A stretch of DNA of 64,000 nt, from the NCBI RefSeq assembly GCF_044324785.1, contig NZ_CP172127.1. One strand, 5' to 3'. The notes under the pieces are model-generated. The model did no database searches and was not told the origin of the DNA. It saw nothing but the letters and a program-made list of their open reading frames with translations. The stretch is from Escherichia coli. Lineage in GTDB: Bacteria; Pseudomonadota; Gammaproteobacteria; Enterobacterales; Enterobacteriaceae. Position numbers and translations under genes: made by a program. Shown here piece after piece: positions 7,221-52,075 of this stretch (position 1 is the stretch's first letter; every line of letters begins with the position of its first letter).

Positions 7221-7264
7221 TAAGTTCCCTGTTACCTGAGTGCAGGCAACAGGGAAATAAGGAA

Positions 7265-7654
<390 letters not shown>

Positions 7655-9832: not shown

Positions 9833-9857
9833 TTTTCGTTGTTGATGTGAGTATGGT

Positions 9858-9890
9858 TTGCCGGATACGGTGTAAACGCCTTATCCGGCA
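9858..9890. repeat. REP element between yjgA and mpl
   Basis: GCCGGATACGGTGTAAACGCCTTATCCGGC palindromic unit. Confidence 0.5.
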
Positions 9891-9914
9891 ATGCTATATC
9901 AGGCTGAGGCCGAA

Positions 9915-11288: not shown

Positions 11289-11463
11289 ACGTCACTATCC
11301 TTTTTTAATCTGGCGCTCATTTTACGCATATGTCGGGCAAGTGAGAAACGCATTTCAGGATAATCCGTAATTTGCTGGCGCGATTCACCTGAGCGCAACA
11401 TTGAGATTATTTGTTAAGATTGTTGCGGTCGCTTTACTCCATAAACATTGCAGGGAAAGTTTT

Positions 11464-12462: not shown

Positions 12463-12470
12463 TCTCCTGC

Positions 12471-12497
12471 GCCTCTCCACACGGAGAGGCGTTTTTA
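12471..12497. terminator. Hairpin plus T-run between convergent fbp and yjfF (bidirectional terminator)
   Basis: GCCTCTCC-ACAC-GGAGAGGC followed by TTTTTAT. Confidence 0.5.
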
Positions 12498-14502: not shown

Positions 14503-14512
14503 ACTGTTCTCC

Positions 14513-16015: not shown

Positions 16016-16037
16016 AGTTTCCCCCGTTGTAAAGCGT

Positions 16038-16145
16038 GCGCCAGATAAGACACAACAGCGTCGCATCAGGCATCTCGCACAACCGCCGGATGCGGCGTGA
16101 ATGCCTTATCCGGCGGCCCACAAGTCGGCATCAGGCATTGATGCC
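16038..16145. repeat. REP/BIME cluster between ytfR and ytfQ
   Basis: Multiple GCCGGATGCGGCG.../CGCATCAGGC palindromic units. Confidence 0.55.
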
Positions 16146-16147
16146 CC

Positions 16148-17104
16148 TCAATACCCCATGTTTTTCTTCTTCTCTAACTCTTCTTTTGCGGTATCAGGCA
16201 GGTAAAGGGTGGATTTGGTCAGGGTCAGCTTTTCAGGCATGGTGCCGTCTTTTTTGTATTTCTCCAGCGCGTCAAAAGCGGGTCCCGCCATGTTCGGCGT
16301 CAGTTCAACGCTGGCGTTCGCTTCGCCATCAATCATCGCTTTGTAGATGTCCGGCACGCCGTCGATAGAGCCTGTCAGGATATCTTTGCCCGGTTTCAGG
16401 CCCGCTTCTTTAATTGCCTGAATTGCACCAATCACCATGTCATCGTTATGGGCGTAAACCATGCAGATGTTTTTGCCGTTGTTTTCCGCTTTGATAAAGC
16501 TCTCCATGACTTCTTTGCCTTTACTGCGGGTGAAGTCACCTGACTGCGAGCGGATAATTTTGATATTTGGCGCATTCTTTATGGCTTCGGCAAAGCCTTT
16601 CTTACGGTCAATGGCGACGCTGGCCCCAACGGTGCCCTGCAGCTCCACCACGTTGCATGGTTTGCCATTCACTTCTTTTACCAGCCAGTCACCAATCAAC
16701 TTGCCTTCGAGGATGTTGTCGGCAGTGACGGTGGTCATATAGAGAGACTTGTCTTTCACATCGATGGAACGATCGAGCAAGAAGACCGGGATTTCGGCAT
16801 CTTTCGCCTCTTTTAATACCGGCTCCCAACCGGTCGCTACCACTGGAGCGATAAAGATCGCATCCACCCCTTGCGCGACGAAGGAACGTACCGCTTTAAT
16901 CTGGTTTTCCTGCTTTTGCTGACCATCGGCAATTTTCAACGTAATTCCGCGCTTTTCGGCTTCACTTTTCGCCACATTGGTTTCTGCGGCGCGCCAGCCG
17001 GATTCCGATCCGACCTGCGAAAATCCAACGGTTAATGGAGCGGCCAACGCCATAGACGACATGGCTGCCGAGACTGCAGAGACTACAAGTAAGCGTTTCC
17101 ACAT
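16148..17104 (-). CDS. ytfQ: Periplasmic sugar-binding protein (galactofuranose-binding) of the ytfQRT-yjfF ABC system
   Basis: 318 aa with signal peptide, periplasmic-binding-protein fold. Confidence 0.88.
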   Translation of the reverse strand: MWKRLLVVSAVSAAMSSMALAAPLTVGFSQVGSESGWRAAETNVAKSEAEKRGITLKIADGQQKQENQIKAVRSFVAQGVDAIFIAPVVATGWEPVLKEAKDAEIPVFLLDRSIDVKDKSLYMTTVTADNILEGKLIGDWLVKEVNGKPCNVVELQGTVGASVAIDRKKGFAEAIKNAPNIKIIRSQSGDFTRSKGKEVMESFIKAENNGKNICMVYAHNDDMVIGAIQAIKEAGLKPGKDILTGSIDGVPDIYKAMIDGEANASVELTPNMAGPAFDALEKYKKDGTMPEKLTLTKSTLYLPDTAKEELEKKKNMGY

Positions 17105-17413
17105 AGGGTTGTCCTCGTCGGGGTAATTATTATTGGTGAAAAGATGTTCGCGAAAAAACTATAGACAATTCGTTATGTAACGGATTGCGTTACATCACAC
17201 TTCAAAAAAGTAAATAAAACGTTAATCACAAGTTTGTAATCGCTTTCATCTCACTATGAAAAATGCGGCTACGGTTATGGATTTTCCTGCTCTTTAAACC
17301 ACCTTAAAACTGGCTAAAAAGGAAAATGAAGAAGAAAACAAGCGAAGACATTCGGCGCGAGTTGGCTATAATACTCGGCACTTGTTTGCCACATATTTTT
17401 AAAGGAAACAGAC

Positions 17414-17944
17414 ATGAGCTTACTCAACGTCCCTGCGGGTAAAGATCTGCCGGAAGACATCTACGTTGTTATTGAGATCCCGGCTAACGCAGATCCGATC
17501 AAATACGAAATCGACAAAGAGAGCGGCGCACTGTTCGTTGACCGCTTCATGTCCACCGCGATGTTCTATCCGTGCAACTACGGTTACATCAACCACACCC
17601 TGTCTCTGGACGGTGACCCGGTTGACGTACTGGTCCCGACTCCGTACCCGCTGCAGCCGGGTTCTGTGATCCGTTGCCGTCCTGTTGGCGTTCTGAAAAT
17701 GACCGATGAAGCCGGTGAAGATGCGAAACTGGTTGCGGTTCCGCACAGCAAGCTGAGCAAAGAATACGATCACATTAAAGACGTTAACGATCTGCCTGAA
17801 CTGCTGAAAGCACAGATCGCTCACTTCTTCGAGCACTACAAAGACCTCGAAAAAGGCAAGTGGGTGAAAGTTGAAGGCTGGGAAAACGCAGAAGCCGCTA
17901 AAGCTGAAATCGTTGCCTCCTTCGAGCGCGCAAAGAATAAATAA
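17414..17944 (+). CDS. ppa: Inorganic pyrophosphatase
   Basis: 176 aa, [44 protein letters not shown] signature. Confidence 0.93.
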
Positions 17945-18022
17945 GTTCTTCTAGCGTAATAACCCTGAACGCCGGGCTTCGGTTAGTAGGGGTTTTTTAT
18001 GCCCGCGATAAATAAACACACC

Positions 18023-18373
18023 TTATTCCACCACCGCCTGCAAACGTAATAACGCCTCTTCCACCACCTCACCCGCAGCCAGACCAATACGCTTTGCCAG
18101 CCGGGCGCGTAGATCCATCATCCGCACCTGATTCACCAGCACCACGCCGTGCACATCGCCTTCTTCGCAATGTAAAGGAACGCTAAATCCGGCATAACGG
18201 GCAAAATTTCCGCCCTGCGTAATGGGGGCCACCAGCGTCATTCCCAGTTGATTAAAGGCTTGAACGGAGAGCACAAGCGCAGGTCGACCAGCACCTTGCT
18301 GTTCATGGCCGCTTGCTGGATCAAAGCCAACCAGCACAATGTCTCCCCGTTCAAATTCACTTTTCTTTACCAT
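18023..18373 (-). CDS. chpB: Toxin ChpB (MazF-family mRNA interferase)
   Basis: 116 aa PemK/MazF fold (ERGDIVLVGFDPASGHEQQGAGRPALVLS); overlaps antitoxin gene by 7 nt. Confidence 0.88.
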   Translation of the reverse strand: MVKKSEFERGDIVLVGFDPASGHEQQGAGRPALVLSVQAFNQLGMTLVAPITQGGNFARYAGFSVPLHCEEGDVHGVVLVNQVRMMDLRARLAKRIGLAAGEVVEEALLRLQAVVE

Positions 18374-18618
18374 ATTTCGTCACCCGCAGGGGTGGATTTA
18401 CCCCAGACATCCTGCTCGCTAAGTTCCGTGGCGTTCATGTCACACTGTGCCAGCAGTTCATCAAGCGAGTAGCGCCTGGAGATGGGTGTCAGAATCAGTT
18501 GATTGTTGCTCACTTGCGCCTCCACGCTCTGCCCCGGCCGTAAGTTAAGTTCTTTCATCACAACATTAGGAATGACCATACCTGAACTGTTCCCCCATCT
18601 TTTTATGGTAATACGCAT
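18367..18618 (-). CDS. chpS: Antitoxin ChpS (AbrB/MazE-type)
   Basis: 83 aa from ATG preceded by AAGGAGG RBS (MRITIKRWGNSSGMVIP...). Confidence 0.85.
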   Translation of the reverse strand: MRITIKRWGNSSGMVIPNVVMKELNLRPGQSVEAQVSNNQLILTPISRRYSLDELLAQCDMNATELSEQDVWGKSTPAGDEIW

Positions 18619-18829
18619 CTGCACCTCCTTAAGTTATACAAAGTATAACTCACGGTGCTACAGGAAACGTTTTACCCCTGCGCATTTGTGAACGCCAGCA
18701 GAGTTTTTTATGCGTTAACAGATATGGAAAGCGGCTCGGAGAGAAAAGCAAAAGGTGAGGGAATTACAAAACAGAATGCGAGTCGTCTCGCAAAAAACAA
18801 CGCCACCCGAAGGTGGCGTATGCGTATGG

Positions 18830-19171
18830 TTACTTATCCCTGTCTAACCAGTCGCCGCTTTCAATTAGCTTTAATCCATCGACGGGTCGTTGATAAACGT
18901 ACATCCATGCACTCCCGTACGGCGTCTGAATCAACTGGCGCGCGTATTCACCGCCCCTGGTGCGCAAGGCATCAAGTTCGGCCAGCGTGGCGTTGTCAAT
19001 ACGATAAACTTCACCGTGTACTGTTCCGTTCCCCGGAACTGCGCCTGGATAGTGGCCCAGGCTATACAACTGGTAGTTATCGATACTGAAATCGCCCAGT
19101 AACTGGGCATTGGTCATCCAGTGACTGTTGCCTTGTTTGTGGCGTAAACTGCCGTAGACAAATATTCGCAT
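18830..19171 (-). CDS. ytfP: Gamma-glutamylcyclotransferase-family protein YtfP
   Basis: 113 aa, MRIFVYGSLRHKQGNSHWM... (GGCT/AIG2-like); 2 nt downstream of tamB. Confidence 0.85.
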   Translation of the reverse strand: MRIFVYGSLRHKQGNSHWMTNAQLLGDFSIDNYQLYSLGHYPGAVPGNGTVHGEVYRIDNATLAELDALRTRGGEYARQLIQTPYGSAWMYVYQRPVDGLKLIESGDWLDRDK

Positions 19172-19173
19172 TG

Positions 19174-24725
<5,552 letters not shown>

Positions 24726-38329: not shown

Positions 38330-38968
38330 ATGCCCGGGCGCTTTGAACTAAAACCAACCCTGGAGAAAGTCTGGCACGCGCCGGACAATTTTCGCTTCAT
38401 GGACCCGCTGCCGCCGATGCATCGTCGGGGGATCATTATTGCCGCCATTGTATTGGTGGTCGGATTTCTGCTTCCATCTGATGATACGCCCAACGCGCCG
38501 GTGGTGACGCGTGAAGCGCAGTTAGATATTCAGTCGCAATCACAACCGCCGACAGAAGAACAGCTGCGGGCGCAATTAGTCACCCCACAAAATGATCCTG
38601 ATCAGGTGGCTCCGGTCGCTCCAGAACCTATACAGGAAGGCCAGCCAGAAGAGCAGCCGCAAACCACCCAAACGCAACCATTCCAGCCAGATAGCGGAAT
38701 TGATAATCAATGGCGCTCTTACCGTGTCGAACCCGGTAAAACGATGGCGCAGCTGTTCCGCGACCACGGACTGCCCGCTACCGATGTCTATGCAATGGCG
38801 CAGGTAGAAGGCGCGGGTAAGCCGCTGAGTAATTTGCAAAACGGGCAGATGGTGAAAATCCGCCAGAACGCCAGCGGCGTGGTGACGGGCTTAACCATTG
38901 ATACGGGGAATAATCAACAGGTCCTGTTTACCCGCCAGCCGGATGGCAGTTTTATTCGTGCGCGGTAG
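38330..38968 (+). CDS. ytfB: OapA/LysM-like cell-division-associated protein
   Basis: 212 aa from internal ATG ([23 protein letters not shown]...), membrane anchor, Pro/Gln-rich linker. Confidence 0.8.
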
Positions 38969-39599
38969 ATGAAGGATCAACCAAAAGCCAGCTAAGGAGC
39001 GTCTCTTTGATGACCTTACGTCTGGCTTCCAGTGCCTGGGGGGAAACCATACTGATATGATAAACTAGGCCAAGCGTATGCTGGTTGATCAAATAATATC
39101 CCCCAAGCGCAGCAATATTAATATTCACCTGCAATGGGTCGATATCTGGCTTAAAAATATTGTGTTTCTTCCCTTCATCCAATAAGGATTCCATTAACTG
39201 CAAGTGCGCATGGTTAATTTCTAAGAGACGCTGTGATTTTGCATAATGCACACCTTTACTTTGATTTTCACTATGCACAATTTTTAAAAACCAGGGGTTA
39301 GCAATATAATAATCCCATGTAAAATCAATAATTTTCTCAATGGCTTTTTGTGGCGGAAGATCTGAGAAATCAAGGGCCTTTTCTTTTTGTCGAATATCGT
39401 TCCAGGTATATTCCAGTACTTCAATAAATAAATTTTCTTTATTACCAAAGTGATGATAAACCGTCTGTTTACTACACCCCGCAGCCTTAACAATATTATC
39501 GACCCTGGCCCCTTCATAACCATATTCGGCAAATTCATTAACCGCGCATAACAGCAGCTTTTCCTTCAGGCTCTGTACGTTGCTGGTATCAAGATACAT
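38952..39599 (-). CDS. TetR/AcrR-family transcriptional regulator, divergent from the accessory operon (possibly the intact form of K-12 ytfA)
   Basis: 215 aa from ATG at 39599; N-terminal HTH ([23 protein letters not shown]); 3' end overlaps ytfB by about 17 nt. Confidence 0.8.
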
Positions 39600-39721
39600 A
39601 ACGCTTCCCCACGACCTCTTCAAGACAACTATCTTAACCCGATTAATTAGAAGCTCCAGTAAAAAGGATAAAAACTTGTACTTTCATCAAGTTATCAAAT
39701 GTCCTGTGATCACTATCGCAT

Positions 39722-39743
39722 ATCAACCAACCAGATGGTTGAT
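39722..39743. promoter_or_regulatory. Perfect inverted repeat ATCAACCA-N6-TGGTTGAT in divergent promoter region; candidate operator of the TetR regulator
   Basis: Verified against ORF-track translation of this region; a second repeat CTTGCG-N6-CGCAAG lies at about 39748-39765. Confidence 0.4.
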
Positions 39744-39809
39744 CTTTCTTGCGGCACGTCGCAAGCTAATTGTCACTTAGAAACAATATTCAAAAAAGAG
39801 AGCTATTGT

Positions 39810-40601
39810 ATGAAATCCACTCGTCCTGTTGCCGTGATTACCGGAGCCGCTCGTGGTATTGGAAAGGGCTGTGCGCTGGAGCTTGCTCGTGGCGGATTTA
39901 ACCTGCTGATTAACGATCGCCCCGATGATGACAGCGTAGAAAAATTACATGCCACGCAACAGGAATGTCTGGCAGAAGGTGTGGAAGTGATTTGCTTCCC
40001 TGCCGATGTCGGCGATCTCTCCTTGCATGAAGAGATGCTCGACGCGGCACAAAACCAGTGGGGACGTCTGGACTGCCTGCTCAACAACGCAGGCATTTCA
40101 GTGAAAAAACGCGGTGACCTTCTCGACCTCGAACCAGACAGCTTCGACCAAAATATTGCCATTAACACCCGCGCACCGTTCTTCCTCGCTCAGGCATTCA
40201 GTAAGCGCTTACTGGCACAGCCGAAACCGGAAGCAGAACTGCCGCACCGCTCGATTATTTTTGTCAGTTCCATCAACGCCATCATGCTGGCGATGAATCG
40301 CGGCGAATATACCATTGCCAAAACTGCCGTCTCTGCCGCTGCTCGTCTGTTTGCTGCTCGGCTTTGTAATGAACAAATTGGCGTTTATGAAGTGCGTCCT
40401 GGTCTCATCAAAACCGATATGACTATTCCGGCAACGGCCTATTACGACGAACTGATTGCCAAAGGTCTGGTGCCGTGGGGACGTTGGGGTTATCCGGCTG
40501 ATATTGCTTCCACTGTCCGCGCGATGGCGGAAGGTAAACTGATTTACACCTGTGGTCAGGCGGTTGCCATTGACGGCGGCTTAAGTATGCCGCGTTTCTG
40601 A
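39810..40601 (+). CDS. Short-chain dehydrogenase/reductase (classical SDR, FabG-like)
   Basis: 263 aa; TGAARGIGKG cofactor motif, NNAG, catalytic Y-x3-K (YTIAK); RBS AAAGAGAG upstream. Confidence 0.8.
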   Translation: MKSTRPVAVITGAARGIGKGCALELARGGFNLLINDRPDDDSVEKLHATQQECLAEGVEVICFPADVGDLSLHEEMLDAAQNQWGRLDCLLNNAGISVKKRGDLLDLEPDSFDQNIAINTRAPFFLAQAFSKRLLAQPKPEAELPHRSIIFVSSINAIMLAMNRGEYTIAKTAVSAAARLFAARLCNEQIGVYEVRPGLIKTDMTIPATAYYDELIAKGLVPWGRWGYPADIASTVRAMAEGKLIYTCGQAVAIDGGLSMPRF

Positions 40602-40610
40602 GGCTGAATC

Positions 40611-41453
40611 ATGAGAGATCTGTTACAACGCCCGGATTTATTCAGTATCAATACCGCGACACTGGGCTATAAAACGCCGCTTCCCGCCATTATTGATGCC
40701 TGCGCCGCACGCGGTATTGGCGCAATTGCCCCCTGGCGCAGGGAGTTGCAGGGTGAAGATCTCCAGCAAATCGCCCGCCAGCTTGCCGCCAGTAAGATGA
40801 ACGTTTCCGGTTTGTGCCGTAGCACTTACTACACCGCGCCGACACTGGCGGAACGCAAACTGGCGATTGATGATAACCGCCGGGCGCTGGACGACGCAGC
40901 GGTGCTTAACGCCGCCTGTTATATGCAGGTGGTTGGCGGGTTACCGCAGGGAACAAAAGATTTGTACGAAGCGCGGGAACAAGTAAAACAAGGGATTCGC
41001 CAGTTGCTGCCACATTCGAAAGATGTCGGCGTGCCAATTGCGCTGGAGCCGCTGCACCCGATGACTGCTGCCGACCGCTCTTGCCTGTGCACGTTACGTC
41101 AGGCGCTGGACTGGTGTGATGAACTCGATCCCGATGGTGAGTTTGGCCTCGGCGTAGCGGTAGATGTCTACCATGTCTGGTGGGACCCGGATCTCGCCAG
41201 CCAACTCCAGCGCGCCGGAAAACGCATCCTCGCGTTTCATGTTTCCGACTGGTTAGTACCAACCACCGATCTGGTCAATGACCGTGGAATGCCGGGAGAT
41301 GGCGTCATCAATATTCCGTCAATTCGTCGGCTGGTTGAAAACGCCGGATTTAATGGCGCTATTGAACTGGAAATATTCTCGCCGTACTGGTGGCAAAAAG
41401 ATATTAACAGCACGCTGGATATTAGCGTCGATCGCATCGCGCATTATTGCTAA
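40611..41453 (+). CDS. Xylose-isomerase-like TIM-barrel enzyme (sugar-phosphate isomerase/epimerase or dehydratase superfamily)
   Basis: 280 aa; conserved metal-ligand-like positions (LEPLHP, HVSDW, ELEIFS); starts 9 nt after SDR stop. Confidence 0.75.
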   Translation: MRDLLQRPDLFSINTATLGYKTPLPAIIDACAARGIGAIAPWRRELQGEDLQQIARQLAASKMNVSGLCRSTYYTAPTLAERKLAIDDNRRALDDAAVLNAACYMQVVGGLPQGTKDLYEAREQVKQGIRQLLPHSKDVGVPIALEPLHPMTAADRSCLCTLRQALDWCDELDPDGEFGLGVAVDVYHVWWDPDLASQLQRAGKRILAFHVSDWLVPTTDLVNDRGMPGDGVINIPSIRRLVENAGFNGAIELEIFSPYWWQKDINSTLDISVDRIAHYC

Positions 41454-41462
41454 GGAATGATT

Positions 41463-42239
41463 ATGAGTGACCAACCCGTTCTGTTCAGCAGAGCGGCGGC
41501 TTCCTGCCGTCTGACATTGAACCGTGAAGATAAATGTCATGCTATTAATGAAGAGATGATTGAATCTCTCGATCATTATTTAAATGAAATTGAAAACGAC
41601 ACCACATTACGATTAGTCGAATTAACGGCAACCGGCGATAAATTCTTTTGTGCGGGCGGCGATATTAAATCGTGGTCAGCCTATTCGCCATTAGATATGG
41701 GCAGAAAATGGATTAAACGCGGTAATGACGTTTTTAATCGCCTGCGCAACTTACCCCAATTAACCGTTGCAAATCTCAACGGTCATACCATCGGCGGTGG
41801 TATTGAACTTGCTTTGTGCTGCGATATTCGTATTGCCCGTCCCGGCGCGAAATTCTCTAACCCGGAAGTGATGCTCGGCATGGTGCCTGGCTGGATGGGC
41901 ATTGAACGTGTGCTTAATCAGGTCGGTCCGGTGGTCGGTCGCCAGATGCTGATGCTGGGTAAACGCCTGACGGCGCGGGAAGCTCAGGCGGCGAATTTAA
42001 TTGATGAAGTGGTAGAAAAAGAACAGGTGGAAAGCTGGATGGCGAACCAGTTAGCGCAGCTGGAAAAATGTGGTCCGGTGGCGCTCGCACATATCAAGCA
42101 ACTGATTCTGGCACTGGAAAATAAACATGCCGATTACCCGCACCAGCTACTGGCTGGATTAATGTCCGCCACTCAGGATTGCCAGCAGGCGACGCGCGCG
42201 TTTGCCGAAAAAAGTAGCGTGAGCTTCCACAATCAATAA
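41463..42239 (+). CDS. Enoyl-CoA hydratase/isomerase (crotonase fold)
   Basis: 258 aa; oxyanion-hole segments FCAGGDIKSW and NGHTIGGGIELALCCDIRIA; start taken at second ATG, 6 nt after AAGGA. Confidence 0.8.
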   Translation: MSDQPVLFSRAAASCRLTLNREDKCHAINEEMIESLDHYLNEIENDTTLRLVELTATGDKFFCAGGDIKSWSAYSPLDMGRKWIKRGNDVFNRLRNLPQLTVANLNGHTIGGGIELALCCDIRIARPGAKFSNPEVMLGMVPGWMGIERVLNQVGPVVGRQMLMLGKRLTAREAQAANLIDEVVEKEQVESWMANQLAQLEKCGPVALAHIKQLILALENKHADYPHQLLAGLMSATQDCQQATRAFAEKSSVSFHNQ

Positions 42240-42248
42240 GGAAATTGT

Positions 42249-43790
42249 ATGCGTAAGATAACAACCGCCGAGGCACTGGCGGCGCAAATTCAGGACGGCG
42301 CAACCATTGCCATTAGCGGTAACGGCGGCGGCATGGTGGAAGCTGACCATATTATGGCCGCCATTGAAGCGCGTTTCCTGCAAACCGGACACCCTCGCGA
42401 TCTGACATTGATCCACTCGCTGGGTATTGGCGATCGCGACAGCAAAGGCACTAACCGTTTTGCTCACGCCGAAATGCTCAAACGCATTATTGCCGGACAT
42501 TTTACCTGGTCGCCCAAGATGCAGGAACTGGTGAAAAGCAATGCTATTGAAGCCTACTGTTTCCCTGGTGGCGTGATTCAGGCGTTGCTACGGGAGATCG
42601 GTGCCGGACGTCCGGGGCTTTTTACCCACGTTGGGCTGGGATCGTTTGTTGATCCACGCAATGGCGGCGGTAAGTCGAATGAATGCACTACCGACGACCT
42701 GGTAGAACTGATTGAAATCGACGGTGAGACCAAACTTCGTTATCGCCCTTTCAAAGTGGATTACGCGATTTTGCGTGGCACTTATGCCGATCCACGAGGC
42801 AACGTTAGCCTCGAAGAAGAAGCGATTGATATGGATAGCTATTCGATGGCGCTGGCAGCACACAACAGCGGTGGCAAAGTGTTCGTACAGGTACGCGATG
42901 TGCTGGAAGCAGGTGCCATTGAACCACGCCGGGTTAAATTACCGGGGATTCTGGTTGATGGCATCGTTGAACACCGCGAACAGCCACAAACCTATCTTGG
43001 CAGTTACGACCTGACCATCAGCGGCCAACATCGCCGTCTGAGTTCTAACGACGCTATTGAGCTGGTTAGTCATCCGGTGCGTCGCCTGATTGCCCGTCGG
43101 GCAGCGCGGGAACTGGTGGCAGGCGCTTCAACCAACTTTGGCTTTGGTATTCCCGGCGGCATTCCAGGAGTAGCGCTGCGCGAAGGCGTGCCTTACCAAA
43201 GTTTATGGCTGAGCGTCGAGCAAGGCGTGCATAACGGTATGATGCTGGATGATGCGTTTTTCGGCTGCGCCCGCAACGCCGATGCCATTATTCCATCACT
43301 CGATCAATTTGAGTTCTACAGTGGTGGAGGGATCGATATCACCTTCCTCGGCATGGGAGAGATGGATCAGTACGGTAACGTCAACGTATCCCATCTCAAT
43401 GGCAATCTGATTGGCCCCGGCGGATTTCTCGAAATTGCGCAAAATGCCCGTAAAGTGGTGTTCTGCGGCACGTTCGACGCTAAAGGCAGCAAAATCGATA
43501 TAACGCCAGATGGCTTGCATATCGCCCAGTCAGGTCAAATCCCTAAACTGGTTACCCAGGTGGAAAAAATCACTTTTAGCGCCGCCTACGCACAGCAAAG
43601 TGGTCAGGAAGTGTTGTATATCACTGAGCGCGCAGTATTCCAGTTAACGGCAGAAGGCGTTGAATTAATTGAAATCGCGCCGGGTGTAGAGATTGAGCGC
43701 GACATTCTGCCGTTCATGGCTTTCCGTCCAATTATCAAGCACCCACGCCTGATGGAAAGTAGCCTGTTTACGCCGATGGAGGATGCATGA
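42249..43790 (+). CDS. Family-I CoA-transferase, fused alpha/beta subunits (YdiF / propionate-CoA-transferase-like)
   Basis: 513 aa; N-terminal ISGNGGG and later SGGGIDITFLGMGEMDQYGNVNVS segments typical of 3-oxoacid CoA-transferases. Confidence 0.75.
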   Translation: MRKITTAEALAAQIQDGATIAISGNGGGMVEADHIMAAIEARFLQTGHPRDLTLIHSLGIGDRDSKGTNRFAHAEMLKRIIAGHFTWSPKMQELVKSNAIEAYCFPGGVIQALLREIGAGRPGLFTHVGLGSFVDPRNGGGKSNECTTDDLVELIEIDGETKLRYRPFKVDYAILRGTYADPRGNVSLEEEAIDMDSYSMALAAHNSGGKVFVQVRDVLEAGAIEPRRVKLPGILVDGIVEHREQPQTYLGSYDLTISGQHRRLSSNDAIELVSHPVRRLIARRAARELVAGASTNFGFGIPGGIPGVALREGVPYQSLWLSVEQGVHNGMMLDDAFFGCARNADAIIPSLDQFEFYSGGGIDITFLGMGEMDQYGNVNVSHLNGNLIGPGGFLEIAQNARKVVFCGTFDAKGSKIDITPDGLHIAQSGQIPKLVTQVEKITFSAAYAQQSGQEVLYITERAVFQLTAEGVELIEIAPGVEIERDILPFMAFRPIIKHPRLMESSLFTPMEDA

Positions 43791-45859
43791 GTCAGCTTGA
43801 TGACACCATCCTTGATGCGCTGACGCACGTCACTTTCCCAAAGGGGTTTGTGTCAGCAGAGCCAACGTCAATTGTCACCGTTGAGGATGTTGATTACCCG
43901 ATCTGGCAAGTTGATGCGCTGGTCGTTGGTAGCGGCGCAGCAGGATTACGTGCGGCAGTTGAACTTAAACGCCGCCAGCAAAATGTGCTGATCGCCACCG
44001 CCGGGTTATATATGGGGACGTCGGCATGTTCTGGTTCCGATAAACAGACGTTGTTTACCGCCGCTACCGCGGGCAACGGCGACAACTTCGCCAAACTGGC
44101 AGAGGCACTTGCGAGCGGTGGGGCGATGGATCACGACACCGCTTATGTCGAAGCGGTAGGTTCTCTGCACACTCTTGGCGGGTTGCAATATCTTGGTCTG
44201 GAATTACCGGAAGATCGCTATGGCGCGATTCTTCGTTATCAAACCGACCATGACGAAGCCGGGCGTGCAACCTCGTGTGGGCCGCGTACCTCAAGGTTAA
44301 TGGTGAAAGTGCTGCTGGAAGAAGTACAGCGTCTTGCTATCCCAATGTTGACCAGTGCAACAGTGATTAAACTGCTGCATCAGCGTGACGAAAACGGCGA
44401 AGACCGCGTGGCGGGGGCTATCCTCGCGACCGGTCATCGCGCCCATAACCCATGGGGGCTGGCAATTGTGATTGCGCCCAATGTGGTACTGGCAACAGGA
44501 GGGCCTGGCGAGCTTTATCGCGACAGTGTGTACCCACACAAATGTTTCGGCTCGCTGGGTCTGGCGCTGGAGGAAGGTCTGACGCTAACGAATCTGACTG
44601 AAAGCCAGTTTGGTATAGGCACACCGCGCAGCACGTTTCCGTGGAATTTGTCCGGGACTTATGTACAGGTGATCCCATATATCTATTCCGTGGATGCTGA
44701 GGGTAACGAGTATAACTTCCTCGCGGATTACTATCGCACCACCCAGGAGCTGGCTTCAAACATTTTCCGTAAAGGCTATCAGTGGCCGTTCCACGCCACT
44801 CGGGTGATGGATTTTGGCTCCAGCTTGTTAGATATGGCAGTAGCGCAAGAGCAGCAATCAGGGCGTCAGGTATTTATGGATTTCAATCGCAATCCTGAAG
44901 CGGTGCCGGGTGACCTGCCCTTCTCATTAGATCGACTGGACGACGACGTTCGCGCGTATCTGGAAAATAACGACGCTCTGGCACCATCGCCCATCGAACG
45001 GCTGCAACGAATGAATCCGCTGTCTATCTCGCTGTATAAGATGCACGGTTACGATCTCACCACACAGCCATTGCAGTTTGCCATGAATAATCAGCATATG
45101 AATGGCGGCATTGAAGTCGATATCTGGGGACAAACATCTCTACCCGGTTGTTTTGCAGTGGGGGAAGTTGCTGGCACACACGGCGTCACCCGACCTGGCG
45201 GCGCGGCATTGAATGCCGGGCAGGTTTTTGCTGTTCGTCTGGCACGTTTTATTGGTTGCACGCAAAAGCGGAATATTGATGGAGATATAGCACAGCTGGC
45301 AGCTCCGGCACTGGCTTCTATAAGAGAGATCATTACTCAGGCGCACGATAACGGGACCGGGATGCCGTTGTCGGTTGTGAGAGAAAAAATTCAGGCACGA
45401 ATGTCTGACCATGCGGGATTTATTTGTCATGCCGATAAAGTCCGACGCGCCACTCGTGATGCCCTGCTATTGAACGAATTTGTCCAACGGCATGGATTGG
45501 CAATCAAACATGTGGGTGAAGTTTCCGAGCTGTTTATGTGGCGGCATATGGCGCTGACTTCTGCCGCGGTATTAACACAATTAACGCATTATATTGATGC
45601 TGGTGGCGGCAGTCGTGGGGCGCGGATGGTTATTGATCCACAAGGCAAATGCCTACCACAAACTCGTCGCGGCGTAAAAGAAGAATGGCGTTTTCGCTCT
45701 GAACTCGCTGAAGATAAAAATCACAAATTAACAATTCAATATTCGCAAGGTTCTTTTATTACCGAAGTAAAGTCTTTACGTATGCAACCGTGTATTAACG
45801 GTATTTACTTTGAAAAAAACTGGCCAGACTTTTTAAAGGGAGACATTTACACACAATAA
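43787..45859 (+). CDS. FAD-binding oxidoreductase of the fumarate-reductase/succinate-dehydrogenase flavoprotein superfamily
   Basis: 690 aa; dinucleotide fold VVGSGAAGLRAA, later GEVAGTHGVTRPGGAALNAGQVFAVRLARF; ATGA overlap with upstream gene. Confidence 0.75.
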   Translation: MSQLDDTILDALTHVTFPKGFVSAEPTSIVTVEDVDYPIWQVDALVVGSGAAGLRAAVELKRRQQNVLIATAGLYMGTSACSGSDKQTLFTAATAGNGDNFAKLAEALASGGAMDHDTAYVEAVGSLHTLGGLQYLGLELPEDRYGAILRYQTDHDEAGRATSCGPRTSRLMVKVLLEEVQRLAIPMLTSATVIKLLHQRDENGEDRVAGAILATGHRAHNPWGLAIVIAPNVVLATGGPGELYRDSVYPHKCFGSLGLALEEGLTLTNLTESQFGIGTPRSTFPWNLSGTYVQVIPYIYSVDAEGNEYNFLADYYRTTQELASNIFRKGYQWPFHATRVMDFGSSLLDMAVAQEQQSGRQVFMDFNRNPEAVPGDLPFSLDRLDDDVRAYLENNDALAPSPIERLQRMNPLSISLYKMHGYDLTTQPLQFAMNNQHMNGGIEVDIWGQTSLPGCFAVGEVAGTHGVTRPGGAALNAGQVFAVRLARFIGCTQKRNIDGDIAQLAAPALASIREIITQAHDNGTGMPLSVVREKIQARMSDHAGFICHADKVRRATRDALLLNEFVQRHGLAIKHVGEVSELFMWRHMALTSAAVLTQLTHYIDAGGGSRGARMVIDPQGKCLPQTRRGVKEEWRFRSELAEDKNHKLTIQYSQGSFITEVKSLRMQPCINGIYFEKNWPDFLKGDIYTQ

Positions 45860-45951
45860 TTTTCAATATTTCCTCTGTACCTGATTTTTATTGCCTATTA
45901 CATGGAAATACCAACAACCAGGGTTTATTAATATAATTAAAAGGTTTAAAA

Positions 45952-47229
45952 ATGAATAAAATAAAGAATTATCGATGGCATATGATTGCCCTCGTATGCT
46001 TTATCACTGTAATCAATTATCTGGACAGAACGGCGTTAGGTATTGCGGCTCCAACGATTATGGAGACAACCGGAATAACTAAAGAGCAATATTCATGGAT
46101 TGTCAGTGCATTCCAGTTGGCCTATACATTAGGGCAACCGGTAATGGGCTTCTTTATTGATACCGTGGGTCTGAAGTTAAGTTTTGCGATATGTGCCGCA
46201 ATTTGGGGCCTGGCGACAATGGGCCATGCACTAACCGGAACGTGGTCTGGTCTGGCATTTATGCGCGCCCTGATGGGTTTCAGCGAAGCGTCGGCAATTC
46301 CGGCGGGTGTAAAAACCGCATCAACATGGTTCCCGGCAAAAGAGCGTGGCGTGGCGACAGGTGTTTTCAATATGGGCACCTCACTCGGCGCGATGCTTGC
46401 TCCACCGTTGATTGCCTGGTGCATTATGTTTCATAGCTGGCAATTTGCGTTTATTGTTTCAGGTAGCCTTGCTTTGCTCGCGGCTTTATTTTGGTTCTTT
46501 TGTTATAAAGATCCGAAAGATGCCAAACGCCTTTCTGATGAAGAGCGCCACTATATTGAATCAGGGCAAGAACAGCATCTTAAAACAGATAAGAAAGAAA
46601 AAACGTCAATCAAGCATATCCTCAGCCAACGTAATTTCTGGGGGATTGGCATCGCGCGTTTTCTCGCAGACCCGGCATGGGGAACCATTAACTTCTGGGT
46701 GCCGATTTTCTTCGTCGAAACGCTGCATTTTAGCCTGAAAGAAATTGCCATGTTCGTCTGGCTGCCTTTCCTGCTGGGCGATCTCGGCTGTTTAGCCAGT
46801 GGTTTTGTCGCGAAGTTCTTCCACGATCGCGGCGTGAGTTTAATTAACTCACGAAGAATTACCTTCACTATTGCAGCCGTCATTATGATGACGATTGGCC
46901 TGGTGAGTATTGTCGAAAATCCCTACATTGCCGTATTACTGATTAGTATTGGCGCGTTCTCGCATCAATGTCTTTCTACTGTAGCAGCAACTCTGGGTGG
47001 CGATCTGTTCAAAAAAGACGAAGTAGCTACCGCAGTGGGTATGGCAGGAGCCTGTGCGTGGAGCGGTCAGTTGATTTTCAACCTGTTCATCGGGGCATTC
47101 GTTCACATTATCGGCTTCGCGCCGTTCTTTATTGCCCTGGCTTTCTTTGACATTATTGGTGCTATTGCGTTGTGGACGCTTATCAAAGTTAAAGATGAAG
47201 AACCGCAAGTACAGCTAGCTACCCATTAA
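45952..47229 (+). CDS. MFS transporter, anion:cation symporter (ACS) family, ExuT/DgoT-like
   Basis: 425 aa; N-terminus NYRWHMIALVCFITVINYLDRTALGIAAPTIME and FPAKERG loop resemble hexuronate/aldonate transporters. Confidence 0.85.
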   Translation: MNKIKNYRWHMIALVCFITVINYLDRTALGIAAPTIMETTGITKEQYSWIVSAFQLAYTLGQPVMGFFIDTVGLKLSFAICAAIWGLATMGHALTGTWSGLAFMRALMGFSEASAIPAGVKTASTWFPAKERGVATGVFNMGTSLGAMLAPPLIAWCIMFHSWQFAFIVSGSLALLAALFWFFCYKDPKDAKRLSDEERHYIESGQEQHLKTDKKEKTSIKHILSQRNFWGIGIARFLADPAWGTINFWVPIFFVETLHFSLKEIAMFVWLPFLLGDLGCLASGFVAKFFHDRGVSLINSRRITFTIAAVIMMTIGLVSIVENPYIAVLLISIGAFSHQCLSTVAATLGGDLFKKDEVATAVGMAGACAWSGQLIFNLFIGAFVHIIGFAPFFIALAFFDIIGAIALWTLIKVKDEEPQVQLATH

Positions 47230-50534: not shown

Positions 50535-51221
50535 TTACTTCTGCCCGTAATAAGCGTTGGGACCATGCTTACGCATGAAGTGTTTATTCATCAGGAAGCT
50601 GTCGATGTGATTCAGTTGTGGGTTAATGCCGCGGGCAATCCACGCCATTTTCGCCACTTCTTCCATCACCACCGCATTATGCACCGCATCGTGAGCATCT
50701 TTCCCCCAGGCGAACGGCCCGTGCTGATACACCACAATCCCCGGTGTATGCAGCGGCTCGGCGTTGCCCAGCGTTTCGATAATTACTTTGCCGGTGTTCA
50801 GTTCGTACTCGCCCTGCACCTCTTCTTCGCTTAATCCGCGCGTACACGGGATATCGCCAAAGAAGTAGTCGGCGTGCGTGGTGCCTAACGCCGGGATCGC
50901 CAGCCCCGCCTGCGCCCATGCGGTAGCATGAGTGGAGTGGGTATGGACAATGCCACCAAGCGACGGATAACGACGGTAGAGTTCGAGATGCGTCGCAGTA
51001 TCGGAAGACGGGCGATACGCCCCTTCCACCACCTTGCCGCTCATATCGACCACCACCATATCGCCTGCTTTCATGGTTTCGTAGGCGACGCCGCTGGGCT
51101 TGATCACCACCAGCCCGCGTTCGCGGTCGATGGCGCTGACGTTGCCCCAGGTAAAGGTCACCAGCCCGTAACGCGGCAGATCCATGTTGGCTTCAAATAC
51201 CTGCTGTTTCAGCTTTTGCAT
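50535..51221 (-). CDS. ulaF: L-ribulose-5-phosphate 4-epimerase (ascorbate utilisation)
   Basis: 228 aa from internal ATG ([21 protein letters not shown]...), class II aldolase/adducin fold. Confidence 0.9.
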
Positions 51222-52075
51222 TATGCCGCCTCCACCATGCCAGCTTTGGCCATGCGCGCTTTCACCCAATCACGCGCTTTCGCCACTTCCGCCGCCGGGT
51301 CTTCCGCCGTTTCGCTCCACATCTCAATCAGGTACGGCCCGCAATAGCCACTCTGTTTGAGCGTTTCGAAGCAACGTTCGAAATCCACTACGCCTTCGCC
51401 AAACGGCACATTTTTGAAGACGCCTGGTTTGGTGTCTTTCACATGCACCGCGACGATATGCCCAATTCCGGCCTGCAATTCCATCTGCACGTCGTTGTCC
51501 CACGCCGACAGGTTGCCGATATCCGGATAGAGCTGGAACCACGGGTTGTTGAGATAGTGCGCATAGCCCAGCGCCTTGCTGATGGAGTTCATCAATGGAT
51601 AATCCATGATCTCCATTGCCAGCGTCACCTGCGCGCGGCTTGCCATCTCAACGCTCTCTTTCAGGCCGTCACGGAAACGACGACGCGTTTCGTTATTGGC
51701 TTCCTGATAGTAAACGTCATAGCCCGCCAGTTGGATCACGCGAATGCCAACGTCCTGGGCGAACTGGATAGCTTTACGCATAATCTCCAGCCCCTGCGCC
51801 CGCACCGCGTCATCTTCGCTACCCAGCGGGAAACGACGATGAGCAGAAAGGCACATAGACGGTACACGCACGCCGGTTTCAACAATCGCATTCACCAGCG
51901 CCAGACGCTGCTCGCGGCTCCAGTCGAGGCGCGACAGGCGATCGTCAGTTTCATCTACCGACATCTCGACAAAATCGAAGCCTAACGTTTTTGCCAGTTG
52001 CAGCCGTTCCAGCCAGCACTCCCCGGCGGGGAGCGCTTTTTCATAGATGCCAAGCGGGATTTGTTTGGACAACAT
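51221..52075 (-). CDS. ulaE: L-ribulose-5-phosphate 3-epimerase
   Basis: 284 aa xylose-isomerase-like TIM barrel. Confidence 0.9.

What the first reader, a model, noticed from the sequence alone, without database searches (positions are those of the whole stretch)
40611..41453. Sugar-type TIM-barrel enzyme embedded in a CoA-ester operon
Xylose-isomerase-like TIM barrels (isomerases, epimerases, dehydratases such as IolE or dehydroshikimate dehydratase) normally act on sugars or cyclitols, not acyl-CoAs. Finding one translationally packed between an SDR and a crotonase suggests a cyclitol/sugar-acid-like moiety, or recruitment of this fold to a new reaction.
Basis: inference. Interest (0 to 1): 0.5.

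Follow-up and report, generated by a model that had tools for sequence, protein, structure and literature searches.

The report
Uncharacterised sugar-type enzyme in CoA operon
The gene is real and well conserved: a metal-dependent "xylose-isomerase-like" barrel enzyme of unknown function inside an unstudied seven-gene operon for breaking down an acid, which is present in over half of E. coli genomes but deleted from the laboratory strain K-12.

Summary
Window 40611-41453(+) encodes a 280-aa PF01261 TIM-barrel protein, packed between an SDR and a crotonase in a TetR-controlled operon: SDR, TIM, crotonase, YdiF-like CoA-transferase, NadB/Frd-like flavoprotein, anion-type MFS.

The window is E. 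coli. The operon occurs in 3150 of 5426 complete genomes, at the same site in Klebsiella oxytoca and on a Salmonella IncFII plasmid. K-12 keeps only the ytfA pseudogene.

The protein is not an orthologue of any characterised enzyme. It belongs to the SMc04130 family (PDB 3QC0, function unknown). The Glu-Asp-His-Glu metal tetrad is invariant and dN/dS is about 0.05.

Across about 90 related loci the family splits into two subtypes. The E. coli subtype (G19, S71-T72) always has an SDR neighbour and has a CoA-transferase in 16 of 19 well-flanked loci. The sister subtype pairs with a Gfo/Idh/MocA dehydrogenase and DUF993, and had no CoA-transferase within 7 kb in the 37 well-flanked census loci; one plasmid locus outside that census (L091) does carry one. 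In two loci a shikimate-dehydrogenase-family protein takes the SDR's place.

Best reading: a keto-enol enzyme (isomerase, epimerase or dehydratase) acting on the ketone that the SDR makes on a polyhydroxylated carboxylic acid, probably held as a CoA thioester. The substrate is unknown.

The parts
38952..39599 (-). TetR/AcrR-family regulator (TetR_N + TetR_C_29), divergently transcribed. Its 3' remnant is the K-12 pseudogene ytfA.
   Evidence: RefSeq CDS in the 100%-identical record. NCBIfam gives only weak TetR-family hits. A TetR gene is found next to the cluster in most related loci. K-12 keeps only the ytfA pseudogene here.
39722..39743 (.). Perfect palindrome ATCAACCA-N6-TGGTTGAT in the divergent intergenic region. 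Candidate TetR operator (inference).
   Evidence: It is the only inverted repeat found in 39600-39830 and was also picked up by the hairpin scan. No binding was tested.
39810..40601 (+). SDR-family NAD(P) oxidoreductase, 263 aa from the RefSeq start. The mechanical ORF starts at 39699, but that extension covers the palindrome.
   Evidence: NCBIfam PRK12745 at 421 bits, a legacy model with no tested function. The closest PDB entries, 4ONE and 4DA9, are uncharacterised. An SDR is present next to every subtype-1 TIM with adequate flanks, 19 of 19.
40611..41453 (+). The finding: a 280-aa xylose-isomerase-like TIM-barrel protein of the SMc04130 family, subtype 1 (G19, S71-T72). The predicted metal ligands are E146, D185, H210 and E254.
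41463..42239 (+). Crotonase-family enoyl-CoA hydratase / 3-hydroxyacyl-CoA dehydratase with both catalytic glutamates (GGGIELAL, NPEVMLG).
   Evidence: The NCBIfam hits are short-chain enoyl-CoA hydratase families. The closest solved homologue is 3-hydroxypropionyl-CoA dehydratase 5ZAI at E=2.5e-40, with both Glu motifs aligned.
42249..43790 (+). Single-chain family-I CoA-transferase (YdiF/FadX/Pct type).
   Evidence: PDB YdiF 2AHU at E=5e-115 and 39% identity to K-12 YdiF. NCBIfam FadX scores 385 bits, below its cut-off.
43787..45859 (+). 690-aa FAD_binding_2 flavoprotein, distantly related to L-aspartate oxidase and the fumarate reductase/succinate dehydrogenase flavoprotein. Its start overlaps the CoA-transferase stop (ATGA).
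   Evidence: NCBIfam hits to TfrA, NadB and SdhA are all far below their cut-offs, and PDB E-values are 1e-8 or weaker. The flavin-domain His ('NQHMNGG') and Arg ('HGVTRPGG') are kept, but the 'QFHPT' His is replaced by 'SQFGIG'. This protein and DUF993 never occur together in related loci.
45952..47229 (+). MFS transporter of the anion:cation symporter type (D-galactonate-transporter subfamily). Presumed importer of the acid substrate.
   Evidence: NCBIfam TIGR00893 scores 315 bits, below its 395-bit cut-off. In related clusters it is replaced by TRAP, TTT or aromatic-acid/H+ symporter-type carboxylate transporters.

Best explanation
The ORF encodes a functional, divalent-metal-dependent enzyme of the xylose-isomerase-like TIM-barrel superfamily. 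It belongs to an uncharacterised family whose solved member is SMc04130 (PDB 3QC0).

Like every characterised member of the fold that acts on small molecules, it most likely removes a proton next to a carbonyl through a metal-stabilised enediolate. The outcome would be a ketol isomerisation, an epimerisation, or a beta-elimination of water.

Its substrate is most likely the keto compound that the upstream SDR makes by oxidising a secondary alcohol on a polyhydroxylated carboxylic acid of the cyclitol/hydroaromatic or sugar-acid type.

In the E. coli operon I infer the following. The MFS transporter imports the acid. The YdiF-like transferase converts it to a CoA thioester. It is then processed with CoA as a handle: the crotonase adds or removes water across C2-C3, the SDR makes a ketone, the TIM barrel isomerises or dehydrates next to that ketone, and the NadB/Frd-like flavoprotein makes or reduces a C=C bond.

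No thiolase is encoded, so this is not ordinary beta-oxidation.

Shown here: the fold, the metal tetrad, purifying selection, the conserved gene linkage and the lack of any characterised orthologue. Inferred: the reaction type, the order of steps, the CoA-bound state of the TIM substrate and the substrate class.
For: - **Selection.** dN/dS is 0.05-0.06.
- **Dehydrogenase partner.** Every subtype-1 locus with adequate flanks has the SDR (19 of 19). The sister subtype has a Gfo/Idh/MocA dehydrogenase in 36 of 37.
- **CoA linkage.** A CoA-transferase lies within 7 kb in 16 of 19 subtype-1 loci and in 0 of 37 census subtype-2 loci. In an alignment-based count, 20 of 25 G19-type sequences have a CoA-transferase nearby, against 1 of 64 others. 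The hosts span Enterobacterales, Rhodocyclaceae, Burkholderiaceae, Pseudomonas and metagenomic lineages.
- **Subtype residues.** The subtype-defining residues 19 and 71-72 lie just after beta-strands 1 and 3, on the catalytic face of the barrel.
- **Gene grouping.** In locus L087 the TIM barrel travels with the crotonase and CoA-transferase, separated from the SDR and flavoprotein.
- **Substrate class.** All transporters are carboxylate types. A shikimate-dehydrogenase-family protein takes the SDR's place in L091 and L099. It keeps the catalytic Lys/Asp but has Val and Phe where YdiB has the first Ser of its 'HSLSP' motif and the Thr of 'NTDG'; from my own knowledge of AroE/YdiB structures these positions lie by the substrate carboxylate.
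- **Precedent.** A sugar acid handled as a CoA ester is known from Klebsiella deoxyribonate catabolism (PMC6365646).
Against:
- Two loci have a subtype-1 TIM with SDR, flavoprotein and MFS but no CoA gene within reach. These are Brenneria L066 and an IS-flanked Salmonella unit L086, with TIM barrels 70% and 61% identical to the E. coli protein. CoA activation is therefore not always encoded with it.
- The Rhizobium and S. meliloti pSymA clusters have ACAD, SDR, DUF993, TIM and ETF with a sugar ABC transporter and no CoA-transferase.
- One subtype-2 TIM (L091) does sit with a CoA-transferase, so residues 19/71/72 track the dehydrogenase partner at least as well as they track CoA.
- The CoA-transferase, the crotonase (closest to 3-hydroxypropionyl-CoA dehydratase) and the ACAD of related clusters (closest to acryloyl-CoA reductase) look like short-chain enzymes. 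That fits a small downstream fragment as well as a bulky CoA-tethered polyol.
- The linkage counts are not phylogenetically independent.
- I could not inspect model coordinates, so placing residues on the 'active-site face' rests on strand positions only.
Confidence: 0.5

Rival explanations
1. The TIM barrel acts on a free (not CoA-bound) keto sugar acid or cyclitol made by the SDR. The CoA-transferase, crotonase and flavoprotein only dispose of a small downstream product, such as a C3-C4 3-hydroxy or enoyl acid, in the manner of a 3-hydroxypropionate/acrylate/propionate module.
For: The sister subtype works with no CoA-transferase within 7 kb in 0 of 37 census loci, yet shares about 50% identity and all catalytic residues. 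The Brenneria and Salmonella units lack CoA genes. The crotonase's closest solved relative is 3-hydroxypropionyl-CoA dehydratase. The related ACADs are closest to acryloyl-CoA reductase. The CoA-transferase is of the YdiF/Pct short-chain type. The Erwinia cluster lies next to glycerate kinase, and DUF993 carries a DHDPS/NAL-like 'GIK' lysine motif, which suggests aldol cleavage of a keto-deoxy sugar acid.
Against: CoA genes are linked specifically to the subtype-1 TIM across distant taxa. TIM, crotonase and CoA-transferase form a separate block in L087. The shikimate-dehydrogenase-like proteins are translationally coupled to CoA-transferases and have an altered carboxylate pocket. The E. coli operon encodes no aldolase, thiolase or kinase to finish a sugar-acid pathway.
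Confidence: 0.3
2. A specific version of the best explanation. The operon handles a hydroaromatic acid of the quinate/shikimate type as its CoA ester. The TIM barrel is the counterpart of dehydroshikimate dehydratase or IolE, eliminating a ring hydroxyl next to the SDR-made ketone. The flavoprotein and crotonase reduce or hydrate ring double bonds. The result is either aromatisation or reductive dehydroxylation towards cyclohexanecarboxylate.
For: A shikimate-dehydrogenase-family protein replaces the SDR in two independent TIM clusters (L091 and L099). Such a protein is also fused in register with CoA-transferases in Caballeronia NK8. All characterised members of that family use shikimate, quinate or close analogues (established knowledge). 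The nearest characterised relative of the TIM barrel is the cyclitol enzyme IolI, and dehydroshikimate dehydratases share the fold. PcaK-like aromatic-acid transporters are present in Brenneria. K-12 has the arrangement ydiN-ydiB-aroD-ydiF-ydiO: transporter, quinate/shikimate dehydrogenase, dehydroquinase, the closest homologue of this CoA-transferase, and an ACAD. The related ACADs score second-best to cyclohexane-1-carbonyl-CoA dehydrogenase. A flavodoxin follows the operon in Sodalis and on the Salmonella plasmid.
Against: Only 2 of about 95 loci carry the shikimate-dehydrogenase-like gene. Those proteins score below every NCBIfam equivalog cut-off. The CoA enzymes look short-chain. Glycerate kinase and sugar ABC transporters in sister clusters point to open-chain sugars. 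No ring-cleaving hydrolase or aromatic-ring enzyme is encoded nearby.
Confidence: 0.25
3. The gene is an orthologue of an already characterised enzyme (IolI, IolE, hydroxypyruvate isomerase, 5-keto-L-gluconate epimerase IolO, fructoselysine 3-epimerase, ketose 3-epimerase, or endonuclease IV) and lies next to CoA genes by accident.
For: There are weak profile hits to IolO, Hyi and FrlC (E=1e-7 to 5e-6) and to IolI (E=1.7e-6). The fold is shared.
Confidence: 0.03

Closest known systems
SMc04130 of Sinorhizobium meliloti (PDB 3QC0 / 3JU2), a structural-genomics 'sugar isomerase' of unknown function
   Different: It is the other subtype, with R19 and G71-G72 (alignment). Its subtype pairs with a 385-aa Gfo/Idh/MocA oxidoreductase (PDB 3OQB type) and DUF993 (PDB 4DNH type), and had no CoA-transferase within 7 kb in the census. 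It has no known function, so it does not explain the E. coli gene.
IolI, inosose (2-keto-myo-inositol) isomerase of Bacillus subtilis (PDB 1I60 / 1I6N)
   Different: Identity is only 16%. There is no iol gene context. IolI's substrate is a neutral cyclitol, not an acid or a CoA ester. The E. coli protein matches no NCBIfam model that would name it as IolI.
3-dehydroshikimate dehydratases AsbF / QuiC1 and inosose dehydratase IolE
   Different: Identity is 12-18% and there is no orthology. Those enzymes use free acids or cyclitols and are not found with CoA enzymes.
Hydroxypyruvate isomerase Hyi, 2-oxo-tetronate isomerase OtnI and 5-keto-L-gluconate epimerase IolO: small keto-acid enzymes of the same fold
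   Same: These are the weak best NCBIfam hits. They show that keto sugar acids are ordinary substrates for this fold.
   Different: The scores are about a tenth of the curated cut-offs. Their pathways use kinases and aldolases, not CoA.
Operon-level analogues: the E. coli cai operon (carnitine), the Clostridium bai operon (bile acids) and the Klebsiella michiganensis deoxyribonate cluster
   Same: Each has a transporter, a CoA-transferase or ligase, a crotonase or dehydratase, a flavoprotein and/or an SDR, and works on a hydroxylated acid held as a CoA thioester without full beta-oxidation. For deoxyribonate see PMC6365646. The cai and bai comparisons rest on established knowledge.
   Different: None of them contains a XI-like TIM barrel. 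The CoA-transferases of cai and bai are family III, whereas this one is family I. The Klebsiella cluster has a thiolase and a glycerate kinase, which this operon lacks.
K-12 ydiN-ydiB-aroD-ydiF-ydiO
   Same: The layout is similar: transporter, quinate/shikimate dehydrogenase, class-I-aldolase-fold dehydratase, the closest solved homologue of this CoA-transferase (39% identity), and an ACAD.
   Different: There is no TIM barrel of this family. aroD is a biosynthetic gene, and the functional unity of that region is itself unproven.

Membership tests
Xylose isomerase-like TIM barrel superfamily (Pfam PF01261, AP_endonuc_2) | Significant match to the family profile over the whole domain | tested here: met
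   E=1.7e-37, residues 28-265 matching model positions 1-243 of 249.
Xylose isomerase-like TIM barrel superfamily (Pfam PF01261, AP_endonuc_2) | (beta/alpha)8 barrel fold | tested here: met
Xylose isomerase-like TIM barrel superfamily (Pfam PF01261, AP_endonuc_2) | Glu-Asp-His-Glu metal-binding tetrad at the C-terminal ends of the strands | tested here: met
   E146, D185, H210 and E254 are at least 97% conserved in 89 homologues. D185, H210 and E254 align with the IolI ligands, and the 'GVPIALEP' strand matches IolI 'GVKIALEF'. Metal binding itself was not tested.
SMc04130 / 3QC0 family (uncharacterised) | High full-length similarity and shared invariant residues (N14, R43, C69-R70, EPLHPM, DVYHVWWD, HxxDW, DRGMxGDG) | tested here: met
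SMc04130 / 3QC0 family (uncharacterised) | Same subtype and gene context as SMc04130 (R19, G71-G72; Gfo/Idh/MocA + DUF993 neighbours) | tested here: not met
   The E. coli protein has G19 and S71-T72, with SDR, CoA-transferase and flavoprotein neighbours.
IolI inosose isomerase | Orthology-level similarity and iol operon context | tested here: not met
   16% identity, E=1.7e-6. No iol genes lie within 20 kb.
IolO / Hyi / FrlC equivalogs (NCBIfam) | Score above the curated whole-protein cut-off | tested here: not met
   31.1, 27.5 and 26.1 bits against cut-offs of 300, 353 and 305.
3-dehydroshikimate dehydratase (AsbF/QuiC) and IolE dehydratase | Dehydratase activity on a ring ketone; family-specific catalytic residues | not testable with these tools
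Endonuclease IV (Nfo) | Closest structural and sequence relation to Nfo; trinuclear Zn site | tested here: not met
Complete beta-oxidation operon | Activation, acyl-CoA dehydrogenase, hydratase, 3-hydroxyacyl-CoA dehydrogenase and thiolase | tested here: not met
   No thiolase is present in the E. coli operon or in any related locus inspected. The dehydrogenase slot is filled by a NadB/Frd-like flavoprotein rather than an ACAD in E. coli.
Enzyme acting on an acyl-CoA substrate (the claim that the TIM barrel works on a CoA thioester) | Direct binding or turnover of a CoA thioester | not testable with these tools
   The evidence is only indirect: the gene linkage of 16 of 19 against 0 of 37 and the subtype residues.

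The most novel reading that the evidence does not exclude
The subtype-1 TIM barrel is the first xylose-isomerase-fold enzyme that works directly on a CoA thioester. It would isomerise or dehydrate a keto-hydroxy acyl-CoA. Candidates are a 3-dehydroshikimoyl- or quinoyl-type CoA ester, or a 3-keto-4-hydroxyacyl-CoA whose alpha-hydroxyketone resembles a ketose. This would happen in a thiolase-free, CoA-handle pathway that lets E. coli, Klebsiella and Salmonella use or reductively dehydroxylate a dietary or host-derived polyhydroxy acid. One candidate role is the conversion of shikimate/quinate to cyclohexanecarboxylate by gut microbes, which from my own recollection of the older literature has not been assigned to genes; I could not check this with the tools.
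Probability: 0.3. Interest if true: 0.8.

Novelty: new variant of a known kind. Interest (0 to 1): 0.6.

Why it matters
The operon is in about 58% of complete E. coli genomes, in Klebsiella oxytoca and on Salmonella plasmids. It has probably escaped study because K-12 deleted it.

It links an enzyme fold known only from sugars, cyclitols and DNA repair with CoA-thioester enzymes. The link is conserved across proteobacterial orders.

Working out its substrate would do four things:
- Assign a function to three structural-genomics families solved without one: the 3QC0 TIM barrel, the 4DNH DUF993 protein and the 3OQB oxidoreductase.
- Assign a function to a new branch of NadB/Frd-like flavoproteins.
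- Possibly reveal a new way of degrading or dehydroxylating polyhydroxy acids in the gut.
- Add a strain-variable metabolic trait to E. coli ecology.

Tried and rejected
- **Literature.** I used all ten full-text searches: PDB codes 7VPF, 3QC0, 3JU2, 4DNH and 3OQB; SMc04130; DUF993; ytfA, yjfZ and ytfB; and combinations of enzyme names with shikimate, quinate and gut. None found anything on this family or operon. One search failed on a syntax error.
- **Deoxyribonate pathway.** I checked whether the operon is the Klebsiella michiganensis deoxyribonate CoA pathway. It is not: that cluster has a CoA-synthetase, a thiolase and a glycerate kinase, and no TIM barrel.
- **Known-enzyme orthology.** Orthology to IolI, IolE, AsbF, ketose epimerases, Hyi and endonuclease IV is rejected on scores.
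- **Residue 19 as a CoA marker.** I considered that R19 versus G19 reads out 'free carboxylate versus CoA ester'. This is weakened by L091 (R19 type with a CoA-transferase) and by L066 and L086 (G19 type without one).
- **Flavoprotein as KstD-like desaturase.** No KstD appears among its PDB sequence hits. It is nearer to NadB and Sdh, with only part of their substrate-binding residues.
- **Fusion proteins.** I looked for fusions that would tie the TIM barrel to a partner. None appears among the 150 best representatives, all 381 aa or shorter.
- **Paraburkholderia cluster L101.** Its 590-aa FAD protein, next to a shikimate-dehydrogenase-like gene, is unrelated to the operon's flavoprotein.
- **S. 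meliloti pSymA.** The record carried no annotation, so I could not connect the cluster to published transporter-induction data.
- **Gene calling.** My first greedy ORF caller failed on high-GC loci and was replaced by a GC3-aware one.
Full report
**1. What is there**

The window is E. coli chromosome. Bases 39600-42300 are 100% identical to strain N3 and 90-99% identical to 3150 of 5426 complete E. coli genomes.

The ORF at 40611-41453(+) is annotated there as 'sugar phosphate isomerase/epimerase family protein'. It matches Pfam PF01261 at E=1.7e-37.

It is the second gene of a tightly packed operon:
- SDR, 39810-40601
- TIM barrel, 40611-41453
- crotonase, 41463-42239
- single-chain family-I CoA-transferase, 42249-43790
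- 690-aa FAD_binding_2 flavoprotein, 43787-45859, with a 4-nt overlap on the CoA-transferase
- anion-type MFS transporter, 45952-47229

A divergent TetR gene lies at 38952-39599. A perfect 8-6-8 palindrome at 39722-39743 sits in the intergenic region.

The island lies between ytfB and yjfZ. K-12 has only the 402-nt ytfA pseudogene at that place. Klebsiella oxytoca has the same operon at the same site. In Shigella it is broken by IS elements. A Salmonella IncFII plasmid carries a 74%-identical copy followed by a FldB-type flavodoxin and flanked by Tn3 genes.

**2. The protein**

It is under strong purifying selection. dN/dS is 0.059 against E. albertii and 0.052 against K. oxytoca.

Sequence searches agree:
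- 3QC0/3JU2 match at E=7e-85.
- 7VPF, deposited as 'xylose isomerase', matches at 7e-61. I found no paper for it.
- IolI matches at 1.7e-6.
- The best NCBIfam equivalogs (IolO, Hyi, FrlC) score 26-31 bits against cut-offs of 300 or more.

So there is no orthology to a characterised enzyme.

In 89 homologues, E146, D185, H210 and E254 are at least 97% conserved. The same holds for H188, R43, C69-R70, H149, R156, D213-W214 and the loop DRGMxGDG. D185, H210 and E254 align with IolI's metal ligands, and the strand 'GVPIALEP' matches IolI 'GVKIALEF'.

The family has 248 clusters (50%-identity representatives) at E<=1e-30. None of the 150 best is a fusion protein.

**3. Gene context across the family**

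I fetched about 95 loci: a genome scan, look-ups by exact protein and annotated plasmids. I classified the neighbours by BLAST against reference proteins.

The most frequent neighbours were not CoA enzymes:
- DUF993 was the commonest. PGAP calls it 'dihydrodipicolinate synthase family'. Its solved representative is PDB 4DNH, uncharacterised.
- Next was a 385-aa Gfo/Idh/MocA oxidoreductase, represented by PDB 3OQB, also uncharacterised. Its best profile hits are inositol 2-dehydrogenase and levoglucosan dehydrogenase.

The family splits into two subtypes at positions that follow beta-strands 1 and 3:
- Subtype 1: G19 and S71-T72 ('INTATLGY...CRSTYY'). This is the E. coli type.
- Subtype 2: R/K19 and G71-G72 ('INTATVRKQW...CRGG'). 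This includes 3QC0.

Counts for loci with at least 5 kb on both sides:

| Neighbour within 7 kb | Subtype 1 (n=19) | Subtype 2 (n=37) |
|---|---|---|
| SDR | 19 | 2 |
| CoA-transferase | 16 | 0 |
| Flavoprotein | 7 | 2 |
| DUF993 | 11 | 33 |
| Crotonase | 8 | not found |
| ACAD | 9 | not found |
| 385-aa Gfo/Idh/MocA | 0 | 36 |

The flavoprotein and DUF993 never occur in the same locus.

The architectures seen are:
- SDR-TIM-ECH-CoAT-FAD-transporter: E. coli, Klebsiella, Sodalis, Salmonella plasmid, Rhodocyclaceae.
- CoAT | ACAD-SDR-DUF993-TIM-Gfo, often with a choline-dehydrogenase-like GMC oxidase and an aldehyde dehydrogenase upstream: Caballeronia, Paraburkholderia, Pseudomonas.
- MFS-ECH-CoAT | TetR-SDR-DUF993-TIM.
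- SDR-TIM-FAD-MFS without CoA genes: Brenneria, and an IS-flanked Salmonella unit.
- TetR-Gfo-DUF993-TIM with TTT, ABC or MFS transporters. This is the majority.

No locus encodes a thiolase.

It is not universal for the family, and it is not absolute within the subtype.

**4. Clues to the substrate**

- All the transporters are carboxylate types: anion:cation symporter MFS, TRAP, TTT, and PcaK-like aromatic-acid/H+ symporters.
- In a Paraburkholderia caribensis plasmid, the gene between the CoA-transferase and DUF993-TIM is annotated 'ThiF family'. It is in fact a shikimate-dehydrogenase-family protein (NCBIfam 1e-53, Pfam Shikimate_dh_N 6.6e-19).
- In a metagenomic contig whose TIM (54% identical by BLAST), CoA-transferase (60% identical) and flavoprotein (57% identical) match the E. 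coli operon, the SDR is again replaced by a Shikimate_dh_N protein.
- A third such protein overlaps a CoA-transferase gene in Caballeronia NK8.
- These three keep the catalytic Lys and Asp of YdiB. They have Val and Phe where YdiB has the first Ser of 'HSLSP' and the Thr of 'NTDG'. From my own knowledge of AroE/YdiB structures these positions lie by the substrate carboxylate. I read the change as compatible with a thioester in place of a free carboxylate. That is an inference.
- K-12 has ydiN-ydiB-aroD-ydiF-ydiO side by side. YdiF is the closest solved homologue of the operon's CoA-transferase.
- Pointing the other way, an Erwinia cluster lies next to glycerate kinase. A Rhizobium / S. meliloti pSymA cluster has a carbohydrate ABC transporter with ACAD, ETF and ETF-QO. 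DUF993 has an invariant 'DGIK' motif like the Schiff-base lysine of DHDPS/NAL aldolases (inference).
- The crotonase is closest to 3-hydroxypropionyl-CoA dehydratase and has both catalytic Glu residues. The related ACADs are closest to acryloyl-CoA reductase and then to cyclohexane-1-carbonyl-CoA dehydrogenase, all below their cut-offs.
- The flavoprotein keeps the flavin-domain His and Arg of NadB/FrdA. It lacks the 'QFHPT' His.

**5. Interpretation**

The step I regard as best supported is this. A dehydrogenase makes a ketone on a hydroxylated acid, and the TIM barrel then uses its metal site to remove a proton next to that ketone. Three things support it. The dehydrogenase is the SDR in E. 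coli, and a Gfo/Idh/MocA or shikimate-dehydrogenase-like enzyme elsewhere. Such a dehydrogenase is the one partner always present. And this is the chemistry of all characterised small-molecule members of the fold.

Whether the outcome is isomerisation, epimerisation or dehydration cannot be told from sequence.

The mutually exclusive flavoprotein and DUF993 would then be two ways of carrying out the following step. One would introduce or reduce a double bond. The other would act through a Schiff base, as a dehydratase or an aldolase. This is an inference.

For the E. coli subtype I think a CoA-bound substrate is more likely than not, at roughly even odds. The reasons are the subtype-specific linkage, the TIM-crotonase-CoA-transferase block in L087, and the CoA-transferase-coupled shikimate-dehydrogenase-like proteins. 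The CoA-free Brenneria and Salmonella units and the short-chain look of the CoA enzymes keep the 'free acid first, small CoA fragment later' model alive.

I could not decide between a hydroaromatic substrate of the quinate/shikimate type and an open-chain sugar-acid or gamma-hydroxy-acid substrate.

**6. Comparison and novelty**

The fold and the probable chemistry are known. The family, its subtype, the operon and the flavoprotein branch are uncharacterised in everything I could search.

The nearest analogues at operon level are the cai, bai and Klebsiella deoxyribonate systems, which modify a hydroxylated acid on a CoA handle. None of them uses a TIM barrel of this fold (established knowledge).

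I rate this a new variant of a known kind. Interest is moderately high because the operon is common in E. coli, absent from K-12, mobile, and joins two kinds of enzyme chemistry not known to meet.

**7. Limits**

- No experiment exists.
- The locus sample is biased towards Proteobacteria, and the counts are not phylogenetically independent.
- The motif-based subtype calls left 19 sequences unclassified. The alignment-based table covers all 89 sequences then available.
- Model coordinates could not be inspected.

Noticed in passing
window 38952-47229, compared with K-12 (L098 4695-5096): The whole 7.6-kb operon is missing from E. coli K-12. Only a 402-nt TetR remnant, the annotated pseudogene ytfA, remains between yjfZ and ytfB. 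This probably explains why the operon is unstudied.
   Followed up: yes
window 39722-39743: A perfect palindrome ATCAACCA-N6-TGGTTGAT lies between the divergent TetR and SDR genes and is a candidate operator. The mechanical 300-aa SDR ORF starting at 39699 runs across it, whereas RefSeq starts the SDR at 39810.
   Followed up: partly
L090 (Salmonella contig, 7348-16186) and L085 (Sodalis ligni): A 74-75%-identical copy of the whole operon, followed by a FldB-type flavodoxin gene, lies on a Salmonella contig that carries an IncFII replicon and is flanked by Tn3 resolvase and transposase genes. Sodalis ligni has the same extra flavodoxin. The flavodoxin may be a redox partner of the flavoprotein.
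   Followed up: partly
L086 (Salmonella, 4638-10778): A four-gene unit, TetR | SDR-TIM-flavoprotein-MFS, without the crotonase or the CoA-transferase, is bracketed by transposase genes like a composite transposon.
   Followed up: partly
L089 (Shigella boydii, 7341-10928): In Shigella the island is decayed. The TIM gene is truncated to 207 aa by an IS630-type element, and the downstream genes are replaced by IS copies and unrelated genes.
   Followed up: partly
L091 8936-9760 (Paraburkholderia caribensis plasmid), L092 8007-8810, L099 8933-9745: A protein that PGAP annotates as 'ThiF family adenylyltransferase' is really a shikimate-dehydrogenase-family member. A small group of such proteins is translationally coupled to YdiF-type CoA-transferases, and their carboxylate-binding positions are changed to Val and Phe.
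   Followed up: partly
L016 7546-10879, L013 7621-10867, L095 6827-11340 and about 50 other loci: A three-gene cassette of Gfo/Idh/MocA (3OQB type), DUF993 (4DNH type) and TIM (3QC0 type) is widespread in Alpha- and Betaproteobacteria. All three proteins have structural-genomics structures and no assigned function. In Erwinia the cassette lies next to glycerate kinase.
   Followed up: partly
L025 (Caballeronia humi, 4107-20068): Two paralogous clusters sit back to back, one with ACAD and Gfo and one with crotonase and MFS. This suggests two related substrates feeding the same SDR-DUF993-TIM chemistry.
   Followed up: no
window 51221-52075 (-): A second, unrelated PF01261 TIM-barrel gene lies 10 kb downstream in the ascorbate (ula) operon: ulaE, L-ribulose-5-phosphate 3-epimerase.
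   Followed up: no
proteins P0126 and P0149: Some E. coli assemblies carry roughly 1040-1080-aa products that join the CoA-transferase and the flavoprotein. The two genes overlap by ATGA in the window, so these are probably frameshifts or sequencing artefacts, but a natural fusion is not excluded.
   Followed up: no
identity bands: The operon occurs in two allele classes in E. coli, at 95-99% identity (1620 genomes) and 90-95% identity (1524 genomes) to the window. This is more divergence than is usual for core genes of the species.
   Followed up: no
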